In this document: positions 1-47,285 of the stretch, piece after piece
Layout: each line of letters opens with the position of its first letter
How positions within the stretch are numbered: position 1 is the first letter of the stretch
Source: Escherichia phage phiKP26
Strand: one strand, 5' to 3'
Sequence record: KC579452
DNA: 47,285 nt
Notes under the pieces: model-generated
The model's database searches: none
The model's input: only the letters and a program-made list of their open reading frames with translations
What the model was told of the DNA's origin: nothing
Made by a program: the position numbers and the translations under genes

Positions 1-65
1 TCGGTTACGCGTATATAAAATAGCACGATTTGCATAGACAACNAAGCCGAAAAATNNCGGGAGCC

Positions 66-446
66 CAAGTTGAAGTAAAATACGGTGTCGNAGTTAGCAG
101 GATTAGCCGCCATGGCTGGAATGGAGTGGTTGGCATTCGATCTCTATACGAGGCAATAGAAAAGGNCCAGCCATTCGTCGGGCGCGAAGGGATTATGCAT
201 GACCTGACAATTAAANNCATCCCANAAATACAAAAGAGGGGAATNGTTTGCCTCATTGGCGATAAGATTTATGTTCATCCGGCCCTGGTTGAGATGGATA
301 AGGACGACGTGCAAAACTGGTGCAGTCAGTGCCGATCCGACGTGCCACGCTCAAACTACGTGCCACCGCAAACAACAATCCATGGCTATAATGCCGATGA
401 GGTGGAGAAGGCCATACAGTTCTACCGGAAAGCGAAAGCTCTCCCG
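66..446. repeat. Direct repeat copy A (assembly overlap / terminal redundancy); near-identical to 46542-46922
   Basis: Base-by-base match to 46542-46922 at offset 46476; differences cluster at N-containing positions. ORF 30-473 is the repeat image of the C-terminal part of CDS 46389-46961. Confidence 0.85.
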
Positions 447-2920: not shown

Positions 2921-2996
2921 GTTCTGCTGGCGTAACAGGATAACGCAGAGACCTCCTAAGTCTCAGTTACTGGTTCGAGTCCAGTGCGGAACACCA
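2921..2996 (+). tRNA. tRNA-Arg (anticodon CCT, reads AGG)
   Basis: Hand-folded cloverleaf: 7-bp acceptor stem (gttctgc/gcggaac, one G-U), D stem gcgt/acgc with GG in loop, anticodon stem gagac/gtctc, loop ctCCTaa with U33 and A37, T stem actgg/ccagt, T loop ttcgagt, discriminator A, encoded CCA. Confidence 0.8.
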
Positions 2997-9097: not shown

Positions 9098-10543
9098 ATG
9101 GCTTACACAGAAATTGCTATGGCAGTAGGGAATTCACCTGAAATCTTAGCCAGGANCGTAAAAGTGATGATGTCATCAGGCTTTCAGCCATATGGTGATG
9201 TGCAGATGCTAAGCGGCACCCTCTTTGGCATGAAGATGGCGAAAGGAACAACAAACAACGTTGAAGACTTCATGGTTACATCCGACACCACAATTCAGGG
9301 GCTAGTTAACAGGGTTAACCGATATCTAGCGCAGGGCTGGAAAAGGTTTGGCAATGCTCACTTCGAGGATGGCGCTTATATTTCAGCTCTGGCTAAAGGT
9401 GATTTTGCAAGTGATGAAGNAGGGGGTTCAGGTGAAGCAGGTCCACAAGGTCCGGTTGGTCCGCAGGGTCCAGCAGGTCCCGCAGGCGAAGCTGGTCCGC
9501 AAGGCCCTCAAGGTCCAACTGGTGCAACTGGCCCAGCAGGTGCGGCAGGCGCCAAAGGTGACACTGGTCCGGCAGGCCCTGCAGGCCCGCAAGGTCCTCA
9601 AGGCGAGACTGGAGAAGCTGGTCCACAGGGTCCTATGGGCCCAACAGGTGCAACAGGTCCGGCTGGCCCAAAAGGTGATAAAGGTGATGCAGGTCCAGTT
9701 GGTCCGGCAGGCTTGACATTCCGTGGGGTGTACGACGCAGCGACAGCTTACGTTAAAGATGATGTTGTTACATTCAATAACTCCAGCTGGTTTGCTACCA
9801 CTGCTGTTACCGGAGAGAATCCAGATGTTAGCGATTCCTGGGAATTGCTGGCTGCACAAGGCGCCCCTGGCCCACAAGGAGCAACCGGTCCAGCAGGCCC
9901 GACTGGCCCAGCAGGCCCGGCTGGCATTCAAGGTCCTCAGGGAGAAAGAGGCCTTCAGGGTGAGCAGGGTCCGACAGGTCCGCAAGGCTTGCAAGGTGCA
10001 GCAGGTGCAGTCGGGCCTCAAGGCCCAGCAGGTCCTCAGGGTGAGCCAGGAATACAGGGTCCTGTTGGCCCTCAAGGTCCAATTGGCCCTAAAGGCGATA
10101 AGGGAGACCCGGGAATATCAAGAACCTTCATGAAAGTTAAANCATCGCCTGATGTTGGCACTAATCATATGTTAAGACTACCAGCTCCTCTTAACAACCT
10201 ATCTGTTGGTATAAGGCTTGATTCAACAGTGCTTTTTAGCATTAGAGCCTGGATTGATGAGGGAAGCACTGCCAGGAACATAAGAGGTAATATTGAGGGC
10301 TTCAATAATACAGATAACTACTTCAATACAACAGTAAGGACAGCAATATCTTCATCTTCCGTAACTGGAACAGCATTGGTTACTGGCATTGGTGAATTTC
10401 AAAGAATAAGGCCATATGTTTTTAGCTTTTATGAAACCACAACAGGAACGGCGTGGAGAGTAACAATAAATCTATTTACAGTCGGTTATGTTGTGAGCGA
10501 CAATCAAGACCTGTGTATAGAAGTTGTAAGGCTTGATGCATAA
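9098..10543 (+). CDS. collagen-like repeat protein (two G-X-Y blocks, globular N- and C-terminal domains)
   Basis: 481 aa; two long Gly-X-Y runs ([17 protein letters not shown]...) separated by a ~45-aa non-collagen linker; C-terminal beta-rich domain. Confidence 0.8.
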
Positions 10544-10568: not shown

Positions 10569-10596
10569 TTGTTCCAATTAAAATCTCGTGTATAAT
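10569..10596 (+). promoter_or_regulatory. sigma70-like promoter candidate for the major capsid gene (TTGTTC-N16-TATAAT)
   Basis: Perfect TATAAT at 10591-10596 with a -35-like TTGTTC 16 bp upstream; preceded by an 8-bp-stem hairpin (caatagag...ctctattg). Confidence 0.4.
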
Positions 10597-10634
10597 TGAC
10601 ACGTAAACTCATAAACAAANGGATGCATCTTAAT

Positions 10635-11582
10635 ATGACTATCAAACTTGACGCTTTCGAGCAAGAAAAGATCACTAACCACCTGCGAGCCATGGGCGTT
10701 GATAAGGCTGATGCAGCTGGTATCTGGACCGTGAAGCAGCTCACCGCAAGCCTGAATAAAGCTTACGAAACCGAGTACGACCAGAACTCCGTGGTAAACC
10801 TGTTCCCTGTAAGCAATGAAATTCCTGGCTACGCTAAGTACTTTGAGTATCCGGTATTTGATGGCGTTGGTATTGCTCAGATCGTGGCTGACTACACTGA
10901 TGACCTGCCGCTGGTTGATGCTTTGGCAACTGAACGTCAGGGTAAAGTTTNCCGTTNCGGTAACGCGTTCCTGATTTCCATTGATGAANTTAAAGTTGGT
11001 CAGGCTACCGGTCAGTCTCTGTCTACTCGCAAGCAGTCTCTTGCTTTCGAAGCTCATGACAAGCTGCTTGATAAACTGGTGTGGTCCGGCTCTACTGCTC
11101 ACGGCATCCCGAGTGTGTTCGACTACCCGAACATCAACAACGTTGTTAGCGGTGGTTCATGGTCTCAACCAACTACAGCAGTAAGCGATATTACAAGCCT
11201 GCTGGATATCATTGAGACTTCAACTAATGGTCAGCACCGTGCAACTCACCTGCTTCTGCCTACTACCGCCCGTCGTATTATGCAGAACCTGGTGCCTGGC
11301 ACTTCTGTTAGCTACGGTGAGTTCTTCCGTCAGAACAATAGCGGCGTAACCGTTGAGTTCGTTCAGTACCTGAATGATTACAATGGCACTGGTACCTCTG
11401 CAGCTATCGCTTACGAGAAAGACCCTAACAACATGGCAATCGAGATTCCGGAAGCGACTAACGCACTGCCGGCTCAGCCGCGCGACTTGCACTTCCGTGT
11501 TCCGGTAACTTCTAAAGCAACCGGTTTGATCGTGTTTAGGCCTTTAACTATGGCTGTCATGAAGGGCATTACTTTTGCTTAA
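10635..11582 (+). CDS. major capsid protein
   Basis: ~316 aa (MTIKLDAFEQEK...) with a strong upstream promoter and a terminator immediately downstream; head-module position. The ORF track start at 10596 is probably 5' UTR. Confidence 0.65.
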   Translation: MTIKLDAFEQEKITNHLRAMGVDKADAAGIWTVKQLTASLNKAYETEYDQNSVVNLFPVSNEIPGYAKYFEYPVFDGVGIAQIVADYTDDLPLVDALATERQGKVXRXGNAFLISIDEXKVGQATGQSLSTRKQSLAFEAHDKLLDKLVWSGSTAHGIPSVFDYPNINNVVSGGSWSQPTTAVSDITSLLDIIETSTNGQHRATHLLLPTTARRIMQNLVPGTSVSYGEFFRQNNSGVTVEFVQYLNDYNGTGTSAAIAYEKDPNNMAIEIPEATNALPAQPRDLHFRVPVTSKATGLIVFRPLTMAVMKGITFA

Positions 11583-11603
11583 TAGCACTTTTTGACAATG
11601 ACA

Positions 11604-11629
11604 AGCACCCTTCGGGGTGCTATTTTTTN
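11604..11629 (+). terminator. rho-independent terminator
   Basis: agcaccc-ttcg-gggtgct hairpin followed by a T6 run, directly after the capsid stop. Confidence 0.75.
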
Positions 11630-11652
11630 GTCTAAAGAAANGTGGAGGGGTT

Positions 11653-12118
11653 ATGATTAAGGTAAANGACATAATTGATCTTATAAATGTTGATAGTGAA
11701 AGTGGGGTGATAACATGGAAGCTCAGGGATTCAGGGAGGAAGCAGTGAAATACAAGGTTTACCGGTAAGNGGAGAGACAACGAGTTCATGGGTAGATAGG
11801 ATGATATGGAAAGTTGTTTATGGTGTAATACCTAAGGAGAGAGAGATAGATCACTGAAACATAGAATGATCGAAGAACTCATTATCAATGATTTAGGTGT
11901 GGAAATGAGGTCAGATCAGATNAAACAAAGACTGAAAGACCAACAATACATCTGGGTATAAAGGTGTATCATACTTTAAGCAAACCGATAAGTTCAGGGC
12001 GAGAATAATGCATAATGGTAACGACATGCATATAGGTTACTTCGATACAGCTGAAGGCGCTCACCGGGCCTACATGTTAAAGCAGGCAGAGTTGTGCGGT
12101 GAGTTTGCTAGAGGGTAG
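11653..12118 (+). pseudogene. HNH homing endonuclease with AP2-type DNA-binding domain, disrupted by frameshifts and stops
   Basis: Four frame segments read in order: MIKV.DIIDLINVDSESGVITWKLRDSGRKQ / GETTSSWVDRMIWKVVYGVIPKEREIDH / EELIINDL... / SGYKGVSYFKQTDKFRARIMHNGNDMHIGYFDTAEGAHRAYMLKQAELCGEFA (AP2-like). Confidence 0.6.
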
Positions 12119-12160
12119 CTATTGAGATATAATCAAACAATCGAAACAAAGGAGGAATAA

Positions 12161-12406
12161 ATGAAACTGTTACATAAAGGTGCTTGTGTTATCCGTCTTG
12201 GCGCAAAAGATTATCTTCCAGGCGACACTATCGAGGTTGAAGAGTTATCAGTTGGATTAAAGATTCTGGTAGCTGAAGGTAAGCTTGAGGTTGAGGATGA
12301 CCACAAGGCAACTAANGAAATCGAGCAGGAAGTTAAAGCCAAGGCTAAGCCCAAGAAGCAACCAAAGACTATTGATGAAGCTGAGAATGGCGGCGACTAC
12401 AAATAA
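12161..12406 (+). CDS. hypothetical structural-module protein
   Basis: 81-aa ORF with RBS (aaggagg), followed by a terminator-like hairpin. Confidence 0.45.
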   Translation: MKLLHKGACVIRLGAKDYLPGDTIEVEELSVGLKILVAEGKLEVEDDHKATXEIEQEVKAKAKPKKQPKTIDEAENGGDYK

Positions 12407-26054: not shown

Positions 26055-26520
26055 GCGTAACCGATGTAACTCGATGTATACAATCTCATCCGCTGAAAAT
26101 TGTATACGCTTTTTACGCGAAGATACGCATTAGTTACATTTATAAATCCTTATATAATAAGGGTTTAGAGTATTATTATTATTATATATATTACTATGTA
26201 TATCTTGTAACTACTCTCTATAGCTATGTTGTTGTGTTTTACTAAAATACTATGTTTGATTTCCTGTTAAGGAGAAAATGCATATATATATAGATAGGGT
26301 GCAAATTTGGTGGATACATTGGTTACAAGGGTTACATTCAGCATTCATGCGGCGTACAGAGCATCAAAGCGTATTTATGTGAGTTTTACAGCTATATACA
26401 AAATAGCACGAATAATCAAAAAAAATGATTCCCGATTAATCACAGGGGAGTAAACAACTNAAGCGGTAATACTTGTGATGNATAAATTGGAACACAATTT
26501 ACAGGAATGAAAACANATCC
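26040..26520. promoter_or_regulatory. AT-rich non-coding switch region A (phased ACGC boxes, (TAT)5 tract, divergent promoters); candidate origin
   Basis: ~480 bp without credible ORFs between divergent operons; ACGC boxes at 26105/26116/26125; tattattattattat at 26171-26185; GGTTACA x2 near 26320; palindrome element at its left edge. Confidence 0.5.
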
Positions 26521-27180
26521 ATGAGCAAAATCGAAAGTGGAGAGATNACGAATATGAGTAATATCGACGTATTAAGAAATATAAGGGAGATGCTAAATGA
26601 TGAAGAGGTATCCCCAGATTTGGGGACACCATGCGTAGTTGATGATAATACAAAATTGTATTCTCAAAATGGAGGATGTGGCCTCAAATTTGAGGGCACC
26701 TACACTAACGAGCAAAACGGTCAGTCTTACCCATGTTTTAACTTGCCATACCGTGAAACTATGATTTTGATGGTCGGTTATAACAGAAAGGTAGCCGCAA
26801 GAATTATTGACCGCTGGCTTCATCTTGAGCGGGAGAATAAATTACTAAAAGACCACATGAAGAAGATGGTTTCACTTGACGAGGTCAAAGTTTACAAGAT
26901 CGAGGCTGCGTCAGCAAAAGCCGCGCAGCACAGAGCTGAGGATAACTATTACGCGATTGAGAAGTTCATGTTTAAGAGCATGGATAAGTGTGGAAATCCT
27001 GCGGAACTTGATGAGCAATACTTCGATGTTAAGTTCGAGTCAAATCGTTACCATGACTCTCAAGAGGTGGTTTACAAATATCAGGCTCAGCTTGAGGTTG
27101 CCTGCGAAAAGTTAAAGGCTAAAGATGAGCTTATTGCTAATCTAGTTGATAAGAATAGCGAGATTCTTAAGTTGAAATAA
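26521..27180 (+). CDS. hypothetical protein with coiled-coil C-terminus (possible phage regulatory / antirepressor-like protein)
   Basis: 219 aa; first gene transcribed rightward from the switch region; functional call is a weak impression only. Confidence 0.35.
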   Translation: MSKIESGEXTNMSNIDVLRNIREMLNDEEVSPDLGTPCVVDDNTKLYSQNGGCGLKFEGTYTNEQNGQSYPCFNLPYRETMILMVGYNRKVAARIIDRWLHLERENKLLKDHMKKMVSLDEVKVYKIEAASAKAAQHRAEDNYYAIEKFMFKSMDKCGNPAELDEQYFDVKFESNRYHDSQEVVYKYQAQLEVACEKLKAKDELIANLVDKNSEILKLK

Positions 27181-28476: not shown

Positions 28477-29103
28477 ATGAAGACTTCAGAGAGTAACAAA
28501 ACAGTTTTACAGGCACTATTTAAAGCTCGCACAGGATTTGCGAAGGCGGCAAGAGACAAGCAGAACAGTCACCTAAAGAATAGATACGCAACACTTGATT
28601 CCATGCTGGAGGCTGTAATCCCAGCACTTGATGATAACGACTTAATGATTATGCAGAGCATGTTAGAAACATCAACTACTGACAATCTTAACGTAGAGAC
28701 GACTCTCTATCACGTTTCTGGCGAGTGGGTTAGCTTCTTCATGATTATGCCAATAGTTAAGAAAGACCCGCAAGGAGTAGGATCTGCATTTACATACGCT
28801 CGGCGTTACTCACTAGCGGCGGCTTTGGGAATTAGTCAGTCTGACGATGATGCGCAGATGGCAGTTAAGAGCGTCAAGGACTGGAAGCGCGATATTGAGA
28901 AGGCAGAAACTCGAGAAGAGCTTATCGAAATCTACAAATCATGCAAATCACAAGCTGACACGGCAACGTGGGGTATAGTAGAGAAAGCGATAATAGATAA
29001 ACAAGCAGAGATCAAAATGGCTTCCGCAAGTGGCTTCAACCCAGCTAAGCCAAAGGAAGTCGCTAAAAAAGTTGCAAACGCAACGAATGAAGTAGTAAAA
29101 TAA
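28477..29103 (+). CDS. Erf-family single-strand annealing protein
   Basis: 208 aa; GSAFTYARRYSLAAALG matches the conserved ERF core. Confidence 0.7.
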   Translation: MKTSESNKTVLQALFKARTGFAKAARDKQNSHLKNRYATLDSMLEAVIPALDDNDLMIMQSMLETSTTDNLNVETTLYHVSGEWVSFFMIMPIVKKDPQGVGSAFTYARRYSLAAALGISQSDDDAQMAVKSVKDWKRDIEKAETREELIEIYKSCKSQADTATWGIVEKAIIDKQAEIKMASASGFNPAKPKEVAKKVANATNEVVK

Positions 29104-29392
29104 AAATAAATAAAGCTGTTCCAAAATAAAAGGGGCCTAAAACCCTAAATAAAACAAAATATGATATGAATTGGGACATATTCTCTGATATNNNGATTGG
29201 TAAGGCGGCGTGGAANTATAGAGAAGAAATACGGCAAGAGTAAATNGGAAGATATAAAGGATAAAAAGGAGGAAAGATTAGAAATGAAGAGATGGAGAGC
29301 GTAAGCATAGGAATTATCGAGCTACCTNCTTTGCTAGCGAGGCGCAAATTAGCTGGTATGACGAAGCATTTCAGGAAGGAAAAGTTATCTCT

Positions 29393-38947: not shown

Positions 38948-39022
38948 CACAAATAGTCAAGAAACTACCAGAAAAAGCAGATGGTGGCAATTCAAACAAA
39001 TGAAAAAGCTAGATGAATNNGA

Positions 39023-39214
39023 ATGACTTGCGGAAATATTGAGATGAATTGGTTCAAGAAAGAAATCAAATGGAAAGAAATGTTAAGCATAAAGAGGAAG
39101 GTGGGGATGGGGATAACAGGAGTTATTNATTATAGTGAGTGTTTCAACGACGCGGTATTGGCAAGGANGAAAGCTGAATCTGAATACTCATTTCATGAAA
39201 ATCACGGAAANTAG
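39023..39214 (+). CDS. hypothetical protein
   Basis: 63-aa ORF; Ns within. Confidence 0.3.
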   Translation: MTCGNIEMNWFKKEIKWKEMLSIKRKVGMGITGVIXYSECFNDAVLARXKAESEYSFHENHGX

Positions 39215-46389: not shown

Positions 46390-46961
46390 TGTTTGATTTC
46401 AACGAGGATAAGTTAACTGATGACCAGGTGATGGAAGTCGCCAGGCAAGATAACCTGCCGCCACTTCGTGTGGCAATCAGTACTAATGGATACCGCCAAT
46501 CATTCAATTTCTGGCCCAGCGCCGAAGAGATGCTGTGCGTCAAGTTGAGCTACAAATACGGTGTCGTAGTTAGCAGGATTAGCCGCCATGGCTGGAATGG
46601 AGTGGTTGGCATTCGATCTCTATACGAGGCAATNCGAAATGTCCAGCCATTCGTCGGGCGCGAAGGGATTATGCATGACCTGACAATTAACATCATCCCA
46701 GAACTACAAGAGNCGGGAATTGTTNGCCTCATTGGCGATAAGATTTATGTTCATCCGGCCCTGGTTGAGATGGATAAGGACGACGTGCAAAACTGGTGCA
46801 GTCAGTGCCGATCCGACGTGCCACGCTCAAACTACGTGCCACCGCAAACAACAATCCATGGCTATAATGCCGATGAGGTGGAGAAGGCCATACAGTTCTA
46901 CCGGAAAGCGAAAGCTCTCCGAAAGGGGAAATTTAAAAAAAATGAACCATCTATCAATTAA
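46389..46961 (+). CDS. short paralogue of the 529-aa P-loop protein, lacking the ATPase core; 3' end runs into low-quality sequence
   Basis: N-terminus MFDFNEDKLTDDQVMEVARQDNLPPLRVAISTNGYRQS matches the N-terminus of 41400-42989; a later block (VVGIRSLYEA...LIGDKIYVHPAL) matches its C-terminus. In the cleaner repeat copy the ORF ends at 473. Confidence 0.5.
   Translation: MFDFNEDKLTDDQVMEVARQDNLPPLRVAISTNGYRQSFNFWPSAEEMLCVKLSYKYGVVVSRISRHGWNGVVGIRSLYEAXRNVQPFVGREGIMHDLTINIIPELQEXGIVXLIGDKIYVHPALVEMDKDDVQNWCSQCRSDVPRSNYVPPQTTIHGYNADEVEKAIQFYRKAKALRKGKFKKNEPSIN
46542..46922. repeat. Direct repeat copy B (matches 66-446)
   Basis: Same as copy A; after 46922 the sequence degrades instead of continuing as 447 onward. 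Confidence 0.85.
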
Positions 46962-47285
46962 AAAAAATAAGTNANNAACCCCCACCACCAAAAAAACCAN
47001 NAACACANNNANAAATAACAACAAATAACAACCAAAAACCCANNNAAAAACANCAACACAACANCACNAANAANNCNCCACANAANAAAGGACAAATAAC
47101 ANNAGGATGCGAAGANACGNAGNNNNGCNNNNAGTANNCTNCGCAANNNNNGACAGGCNNNGGTGGACCCTCGTCACCGTAACACTTACAGGTACGCACG
47201 GACGGTAACGGTCGGACGAGGCAGGGTACGTACGGTCGGTAGGGACGGCGGGTACCTAGGTAGGGGTACTTTCGGAACGGTAACG
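46923..47285. other. Low-quality / artefactual sequence tail (N-rich, A/C homopolymer-rich)
   Basis: Dense Ns, poly-A and poly-C runs, no coherent reading frame; the ORFs predicted here are full of X. Confidence 0.8.

What the first reader, a model, noticed from the sequence alone, without database searches (positions are those of the whole stretch)
11653..12118. HNH-AP2 homing endonuclease remnant inserted between the major capsid gene and the head-tail genes
Four consecutive frame segments together spell a typical phage HNH endonuclease: an N-terminal ...GVITWK block, a ...WKVVYGVIPKEREIDH block ending at the first HNH histidine, and a C-terminal AP2-like domain SGYKGVSYFKQTDKFRARI...IGYFDTAEGAHRAY. 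At least three frame breaks and internal stops within ~470 bp, while all neighbours are intact, point to a decaying selfish element. It sits right after the capsid terminator, a favoured site for homing endonucleases.
Basis: partly seen in the sequence, partly recalled or inferred. Interest (0 to 1): 0.5.

Follow-up and report, generated by a model that had tools for sequence, protein, structure and literature searches.

The report
Garbled consensus of intact HNH gene
The "decaying" homing-endonuclease gene is an ordinary, almost certainly intact phage HNH-AP2 gene whose middle was scrambled when the genome record was assembled, so the stops and frame break are not biology.

Summary
The described ORF fragments are present at 11653-12118, between the major capsid gene and the next head-tail gene. 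They belong to an HNH-AP2 endonuclease. The "decay" is a sequence-record artefact.

The window is 47,285 bp, the published length of phage phiKP26. Outside four short patches and its ends, it differs from phage C119 (Illumina, de novo) at about 9 called bases in roughly 46.5 kb. C119 carries an intact 176-aa HNH_3+AP2 gene at this site.

The window's copy is identical to C119 over its first ~82 nt and last ~173 nt. Only 11735-11945 is garbled. In that patch, 200 of 209 called bases equal the C119 base in one of two registers, left-anchored or right-anchored, which lie 65 nt apart. Where the registers disagree, the base follows a fixed two-base rule. This is two sets of read overhangs from the same intact gene, laid over each other.

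The same signature occurs at three other loci, one of which is not an endonuclease gene. At all four, the window's length matches phage Rogue1 rather than C119, which points to reference-guided consensus building.

The real element is a known free-standing HNH-AP2 homing endonuclease in a slot that holds four different alleles across Rogunavirinae. Interest is low.

The parts
10596..11582 (+). Major capsid (head) protein gene, the upstream neighbour
   Evidence: ORF. It is orthologous to the C119, Rogue1 and Sd1 'major head protein' genes.
11604..11628 (+). Intrinsic terminator of the capsid gene (AGCACCCTTCGGGGTGCT plus a T-run). This is the left border of the insertion slot.
   Evidence: Terminator scan. 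It is conserved in both occupied and empty sites.
11629..11652 (+). 5' leader of the inserted gene, carrying its own ribosome-binding site (GGAGGGG, 5 nt before the ATG)
   Evidence: Read from the sequence. It is identical to C119 apart from Ns and absent from the empty sites of JK06, Opt-719 and Sf12.
11653..11734 (+). Clean 5' part of the HNH-AP2 gene (codons 1-27), identical to C119 gp05
   Evidence: 100% identity in 20-nt bins. The first non-N difference is at 11735.
11735..11945 (+). Garbled patch, a superposition of left-anchored and right-anchored registers of the same gene 65 nt apart. It should encode the HNH_3 nuclease core. It contains all six spurious stops and the apparent 65-nt deletion.
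   Evidence: Of 209 called bases, 200 match C119 in one of the two registers, against about 111 unexplained at control offsets. Mismatches to the aligned register are explained by the other register in 35 of 41 and 13 of 16 cases, against controls of 11.7±2.8 and 4.8±1.7.
11946..12118 (+). Clean 3' part of the gene, holding the AP2-like DNA-binding domain and the true stop (TAG 12116-12118). It is identical to C119 gp05.
   Evidence: Pfam AP2 E 3.4e-6 on the window's own translation.
12119..12160 (+). Right border of the slot, with a TATAAT-containing leader and the RBS of the next gene
   Evidence: Promoter-like site 12105-12133. ATATAATCAAACAATCG is shared by occupied and empty sites.
12161..12406 (+). 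Downstream neighbour, a conserved 81-aa head-tail region gene
   Evidence: ORF. Orthologs are found in all relatives examined.

Best explanation
The real phage (phiKP26 or an equivalent isolate) carries an intact free-standing HNH-AP2 homing-endonuclease gene identical, or nearly so, to C119 gp05. The stops and frame shift come from how the deposited consensus was built.

Inferred mechanism of the artefact: reads were laid onto a reference coordinate frame whose insert at this site is about 65 nt shorter, which fits Rogue1. Reads anchored in the left flank ran into the gene in one register. Reads anchored in the right flank ran in 65 nt out of step. The consensus over the 211-nt overlap took, base by base, one register or the other. 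Two-base conflicts were collapsed by a fixed rule: A/C to A, A/G to A, A/T to T, C/G to G, C/T to C, G/T to G.

Inferred biology of the real gene, not tested here: the HNH_3 domain cuts or nicks the empty site of a co-infecting relative, the AP2-like domain supplies DNA recognition, and recombinational repair copies the gene into the slot between the capsid terminator and the next gene's promoter.
For: 1. Outside the patches and ends, the window and C119 differ at about 9 isolated called bases in roughly 46.5 kb. There are 65 differences within 11735-11942.
2. The two ends of the same gene are 100% identical to C119.
3. In the patch, 200 of 209 called bases equal C119 in the left register (window position -7852) or the right register (-7787). 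Only the 65-nt offset gives this result; neighbouring offsets leave 58-68 bases unexplained.
4. Where the registers differ, 117 of 135 bases follow one direction per base pair, and the rule is non-transitive. That fits a look-up table or tie-break, not mutation.
5. The "deleted" 65 nt are still detectable as the minority register: 35 of 41 mismatches are explained.
6. The same noisy-patch-plus-shortfall pattern occurs at 29098-29311, 38961-39146 and 26423-26578. The last is an anti-repressor gene, not an endonuclease. The two-register model leaves 25, 43 and 24 bases unexplained there, against controls of about 107, 93 and 78.
7. Anchor-to-anchor lengths at the four loci track Rogue1, not C119: 601 vs 600 vs 666; 265 vs 260 vs 772; 300 vs 297 vs 590; 643 vs 641.
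8. The window has 149 Ns and junk at its ends. A sister genome from the same laboratory was produced with 454 GS Junior and Geneious (PMC3587941).
9. C119 was sequenced on MiSeq and assembled de novo at about 50x (PMC5028729). Its gp05 is an intact 176-aa protein with HNH_3 at 65 bits (cut-off 24.8) and AP2 at E 1.8e-5, and it hits phrog_99 'HNH endonuclease' at 6e-58.
Against: - No reads or assembly files are available, so the reference-mapping scenario rests on length coincidences and the superposition signature.
- Rogue1's own bases do not appear in the patches, so the identity of the reference is not proven.
- Nine bases in the patch fit neither register.
- At the two larger loci the two-register model leaves 12-23% of bases unexplained, probably because of internal indels or further registers.
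- The step that produced the fixed two-base rule is unknown. It could be the depositor's software or a later conversion of IUPAC codes.
- The identification of the window as phiKP26 rests on the length of 47,285 bp and its relatedness, not on a direct match to the record.
Confidence: 0.9

Rival explanations
1. Real pseudogene. After fixation, the homing endonuclease gene is decaying through point mutations and a 65-bp deletion.
For: Stops and a frame change are present in the deposited sequence. Homing endonuclease genes are known to degenerate after fixation (general knowledge). The two other C119 HNH genes are also disrupted in the window.
Against: - Neutral decay cannot place 65 changes in 210 nt while the rest of the same gene shows none and the rest of the genome shows about 9 in 46.5 kb.
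- 85% of the "mutations" equal the base 65 nt away in the intact gene.
- The change spectrum runs in one direction per base pair.
- The same pattern hits a non-endonuclease gene.
- The lengths match Rogue1.
Confidence: 0.03
2. Real heterogeneity in the phage stock. The lysate held a mixture of genomes with full-length and shortened or absent inserts, and the consensus merged them.
For: A two-component signal is what the patch shows. Related records with and without inserts exist from the same laboratory (C119 and phiJLA23).
Against: - A true 65-bp deletion variant would be out of register only from the deletion point onward. It would not produce a bounded 211-nt patch anchored cleanly on both sides.
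- The shortfalls at four unrelated loci each reproduce Rogue1's length to within 1-5 nt, which a population mixture would not do.
- phiJLA23's "empty" site keeps the last 13 nt of the C119-type insert and has exactly the 118-nt empty-site length measured in Opt-719 and Sf12 (JK06's own junction sequence appears to match), so it looks like a mapping artefact as well.
Confidence: 0.04
3. Mosaic gene. Recombination replaced the middle of the gene with the corresponding part of a different, already degenerate HNH allele.
For: Phage HNH genes are mosaic and at least four alleles share this slot. The sharp transitions from 100% to about 70% identity look like recombination junctions.
Against: A distant blastn search of the region against 50,697 phage records finds only C119 and, for the AP2 part, phiEB49. 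The divergent bases are explained by the same gene shifted by 65 nt, not by another allele.
Confidence: 0.01

Closest known systems
Escherichia phage C119 gp05 (YP_009615840.1, 'HNH endonuclease'), Rogunavirus
   Same: It occupies the same slot between the major head gene and the 81-aa gene. It is identical to the window over the leader, the first 82 nt and the last 173 nt of the gene, and the rest of the genome differs at about 9 called bases.
   Different: C119 has an intact 531-nt ORF. The window's record is 65 nt shorter and garbled over 211 nt, which I attribute to consensus building.
Free-standing HNH-AP2 homing endonucleases of phages (Pfam HNH_3 PF13392 + AP2 PF00847; phrog_99)
   Same: The ortholog has the N-terminal region, the HNH_3 core and a C-terminal AP2-like domain. 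It is a small intergenic ORF with its own RBS, inserted between a terminator and the next promoter. The site is variably occupied among close relatives. tblastn finds relatives in 3,697 phage records.
   Different: No cleavage or homing has been shown for this allele. The AP2 score is below Pfam's curated cut-off (25.3-27.7 bits vs 33.3). The nearest other allele, phiEB49 gp51, is only 53% identical.
Reference-guided assembly artefacts at insertions or deletions relative to the reference
   Same: Garbled consensus appears exactly where the sample is longer than the putative reference. The local length equals that of the reference, and the patches are flanked by clean sequence and contain extra Ns.
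   Different: The reference is inferred, not documented. Its own bases do not show up in the patches.

Membership tests
HNH_3 endonuclease (Pfam PF13392) | Profile match above the gathering score over the HNH core (..IDH..N..NLR..N..N) | tested here: met
   Met for the intact ortholog C119 gp05: 65 bits against a cut-off of 24.8, residues 70-111. Not detectable in the window's own translation, where the fragment ending ..EIDH gives no hit, because the core lies inside the garbled patch.
AP2 DNA-binding domain (Pfam PF00847) | Profile match above the gathering score in the C-terminal region | tested here: inconclusive
   The window's C-terminal 58 aa score E 3.4e-6 and 27.7 bits. C119 gp05 scores 25.3 bits. 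Both are below the cut-off of 33.3. The Sd1 allele in the same slot scores 33.2 bits. The match is significant by E-value but below the curated threshold.
Free-standing homing endonuclease gene | Presence/absence polymorphism at a fixed intergenic site among close relatives | tested here: met
   The slot is occupied in C119 and the window, phiEB49, Sd1 and Rogue1 by four alleles sharing 34-53% aa identity. It is empty in JK06, Opt-719 and Sf12, with 118 nt between anchors measured in Opt-719 and Sf12 (JK06's empty junction was read from its sequence because its anchor search failed).
Free-standing homing endonuclease gene | Site-specific cleavage of the empty allele and copying of the gene into it | not testable with these tools
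   This needs co-infection or in vitro cleavage assays.
Degenerate (pseudogenised) homing endonuclease | Disabling mutations that are real in the genome and distributed as expected for neutral decay | tested here: not met
   The differences are confined to 211 nt. Of 209 called bases there, 200 are explained by two registers of the intact gene, and the spectrum runs in one direction per base pair.

The most novel reading that the evidence does not exclude
The phiKP26 lysate really contained a mixed population in which all three HNH genes and the anti-repressor start were being lost or shortened, and the record captures homing-endonuclease loss in progress within a single stock.
Probability: 0.04. 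Interest if true: 0.3.

Novelty: already known. Interest (0 to 1): 0.07.

Why it matters
It matters mainly as a caution. The window appears to be a public phage record, phiKP26. That record carries at least four consensus artefacts that imitate pseudogenes and deletions. Three of them hit homing-endonuclease genes, because those are the segments missing or different in the likely reference.

Anyone counting decayed homing endonucleases, or scoring gene presence and absence in Rogunavirus from this record, would be misled. The same probably applies to phiJLA23.

The underlying biology is ordinary and already annotated in the sister genome C119: an HNH-AP2 gene in a slot after the capsid terminator that several alleles use.

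Tried and rejected
- I searched for a donor for the divergent middle with a distant blastn of 11640-12125 against 50,697 phage records. Only C119 and, for the AP2 part, phiEB49 matched, so a mosaic origin was rejected.
- I tested whether Rogue1 reference bases leak into the patches. Identity was at chance level and the unexplained bases were no better explained than at control offsets, so the reference contributes length only, if anything.
- My first right-register offset, taken from a BLAST HSP, was off by one and gave a false negative with 59 bases unexplained. Scanning offsets 55-75 showed that only 65 works.
- K-mer anchoring failed for the right sides of the HNH2 and HNH3 loci because of Ns. 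I redid them with BLAST offsets.
- I tried to explain the fixed two-base rule by 454 flow order, ASCII or bit encodings, or a linear base priority. None fits. The rule is non-transitive (T over A, A over C, C over T), so it looks like a look-up table. Its origin is unresolved.
- The phiKP26 paper (PMID 23677676) is not held in the library, so its sequencing and assembly method could not be read.
- I considered using phiJLA23 as an empty-site control and rejected it. Its junction keeps 13 nt of the C119-type insert and has exactly the 118-nt empty-site length of Opt-719 and Sf12.

Full report
**What is in the sequence.** Between the major capsid gene (10596-11582) and a conserved 81-aa gene (12161-12406) lies a 578-nt spacer. 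It starts with the capsid terminator, a stem-loop at 11604-11621 followed by a T-run. An ORF with its own RBS begins at ATG 11653 and stops after 31 codons at TGA 11746. A second frame carries ..VDRMIWKVVYGVIPKEREIDH*, then four more stops, then a clean NNTSGYKGVSYFKQTDKFRARIMHNGNDMHIGYFDTAEGAHRAYMLKQAELCGEFARG* ending at 12118. The window contains 149 Ns, five of them in this kilobase.

**What it corresponds to.** The window is a Rogunavirus (Drexlerviridae) genome. Its length of 47,285 bp equals the published length of phage phiKP26, KC579452 (PMC4070988). It is collinear with Escherichia phage C119 at 98.1-99.8% identity (99.1-99.8% in five of the six aligned blocks) across the genome. C119 carries an intact 176-aa gene, gp05, annotated as an HNH endonuclease, in the same position. 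That protein scores 65 bits on Pfam HNH_3 (cut-off 24.8). It scores 25.3 bits on AP2 (E 1.8e-5), which is below the cut-off. It also matches phrog_99 'HNH endonuclease' at 6e-58.

**The pattern of differences is not evolutionary.** Outside a few patches and the window's ends, the window and C119 differ at only about 9 isolated called bases in roughly 46.5 kb. Within the HNH gene, the first ~82 nt and the last ~173 nt are 100% identical to C119. Positions 11735-11942 hold 65 differences plus a 65-nt shortfall, with identity of 58-85% in 20-nt bins and an abrupt return to 100%. The changes run in one direction for each base pair: G to A, C to A, A to T, T to G, C to G and T to C, with the reverse directions almost absent.

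**The patch is two copies of the same intact gene laid over each other.** I compared every base of 11735-11945 with C119 in two registers. The left-anchored register is window position -7852 and the right-anchored register is window position -7787.

| Category | Bases (of 209 called) |
|---|---|
| Match both registers | 65 |
| Match left register only | 60 |
| Match right register only | 75 |
| Match neither | 9 |

- Offsets of 55-64 or 66-75 leave 50-68 bases unexplained (all but one of them 58-68).
- Shifting both registers together leaves about 111 unexplained.
- To the right of the apparent deletion, 35 of 41 mismatches to the aligned register equal the C119 base 65 nt upstream. Control offsets give 11.7±2.8, with a maximum of 18.
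- To the left of the deletion, 13 of 16 mismatches are explained the same way. Controls give 4.8±1.7.
- The "missing" 65 nt are therefore still visible as the second component.

Where the two registers disagree, the window's base follows a fixed rule:

| Conflicting bases | Base taken | Count (follows rule : does not) |
|---|---|---|
| A/C | A | 17:3 |
| A/G | A | 32:7 |
| A/T | T | 28:4 |
| C/G | G | 14:1 |
| C/T | C | 12:1 |
| G/T | G | 14:2 |

The rule is non-transitive. It behaves like two-base ambiguity calls collapsed through a look-up table, not like mutation. No mutational process interleaves a sequence with itself at a 65-nt offset. Consensus calling over mis-registered reads does.

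**It is a property of the whole record.** The same noisy patch plus shortfall is seen at three other loci.

| Window coordinates | C119 gene affected | Shortfall | Unexplained by two-register model (control) |
|---|---|---|---|
| 29098-29311 | gp27, HNH | ~507 nt | 25 (~107) |
| 38961-39146 | gp41, HNH | ~292 nt | 43 (~93) |
| 26423-26578 | gp23, anti-repressor start (not an endonuclease) | 58 nt | 24 (~78) |

The window's ends (46930-47285 and 1-66) are A/C-rich, N-rich junk.

**Likely cause.** At all four loci, the distance between clean anchors in the window equals that in phage Rogue1 to within 1-5 nt. It does not equal the distance in C119.

| Locus | Window | Rogue1 | C119 |
|---|---|---|---|
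| HNH1 (this finding) | 601 | 600 | 666 |
| HNH2 | 265 | 260 | 772 |
| HNH3 | 300 | 297 | 590 |
| Anti-repressor (BLAST block ends) | 643 | 641 | not measured over this interval (58 nt longer than the window over exact anchors, 273 vs 215) |

Rogue1 has a different, shorter HNH gene at the capsid slot and no insert at the second locus. The simplest reading is that the consensus was built in a Rogue1-like coordinate frame. Wherever the sample was longer than the frame, overhangs from left-anchored and right-anchored reads were piled on each other. This step is inferred. Rogue1's own bases do not appear in the patches, and the phiKP26 paper is not available. A sister genome from the same laboratory was produced with 454 GS Junior and Geneious (PMC3587941). 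C119 was sequenced on MiSeq and assembled de novo at about 50x (PMC5028729).

**The real element.** Comparing occupied and empty sites places the insert between the capsid terminator's T-run and the ATATAATCAAACAATCG leader of the next gene. JK06, Opt-719 and Sf12 are empty, with 118 nt between anchors measured in Opt-719 and Sf12 and JK06's empty junction read directly from its sequence. Four different HNH genes occupy the slot: the C119/window allele, phiEB49 gp51 (53% aa identity), Sd1 gp42 (44%) and Rogue1 gp23 (34%). That presence/absence polymorphism at a fixed intergenic site, involving several alleles, is the population signature of free-standing homing endonucleases. The proposed mechanism is HNH_3 cleavage of the empty allele during co-infection, AP2-mediated DNA recognition, and copying by recombinational repair. 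It follows from what is known of the family and was not tested here. tblastn finds relatives of gp05 in 3,697 phage records, so the family is commonplace.

**Verdict.** The "decaying remnant" reading is not supported. The gene is almost certainly intact in the phage, and the disruption is a consensus artefact in a draft-quality record. Novelty is "already known", and interest is low except as a warning about this record.

Noticed in passing
window 29098-29311: A second garbled patch lies between the Erf-like and SSB genes. It is the superposed 5' and 3' ends of C119 gp27 (an HNH endonuclease), with about 507 nt missing and a cluster of Ns at 29192-29246. The local length equals Rogue1 and phiJLA23, which have no insert here.
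   Followed up: partly
window 38961-39146: A third garbled patch covers C119 gp41 (an HNH endonuclease), with about 292 nt missing and many Ns up to 39335. The two-register model explains most of the bases but not all: 43 of 183 remain unexplained, probably because of internal indels.
   Followed up: partly
window 26423-26578: A fourth garbled patch destroys the start of the anti-repressor gene (C119 gp23), with a 58-nt shortfall. This is not an endonuclease gene, which shows that the artefact is not specific to homing genes.
   Followed up: partly
window 1-66 and 46930-47285; also 66-457 vs 46540-46930: The record's ends are A/C-rich, N-rich junk that does not match C119. Inside them, about 390 nt are present twice (window 101-140 recurs at 46577). 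This looks like an untrimmed overlap of a circularly permuted genome.
   Followed up: partly
L002/L006 (phiJLA23) 2487-2580, equivalent to window 11583-12160: phiJLA23's apparently empty slot keeps the last 13 nt of the C119-type insert (GGTAGCTATTGAG). It also has exactly the 118-nt spacing of the true empty sites measured in Opt-719 and Sf12 (JK06's junction looks the same). Its lack of the HNH gene may therefore be a reference-mapping artefact too. The record has 230 Ns.
   Followed up: partly
window 11735-11945 and the other patches: Where two superposed registers disagree, the called base follows a fixed, non-transitive rule: A/C to A, A/G to A, A/T to T, C/G to G, C/T to C, G/T to G. This looks like IUPAC two-base codes collapsed through a table. 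Which software step did this is unknown.
   Followed up: partly
window 9098-10543: The gene upstream of the capsid gene encodes a 481-aa protein with long collagen-like G-X-Y repeats and locally high GC of about 0.6. It is annotated as a tail fibre or collagen-like protein in relatives, and is much shorter in JK06.
   Followed up: no
window 2921-2996: A single tRNA-Arg (anticodon CCT) is present, as in Rogue1.
   Followed up: no
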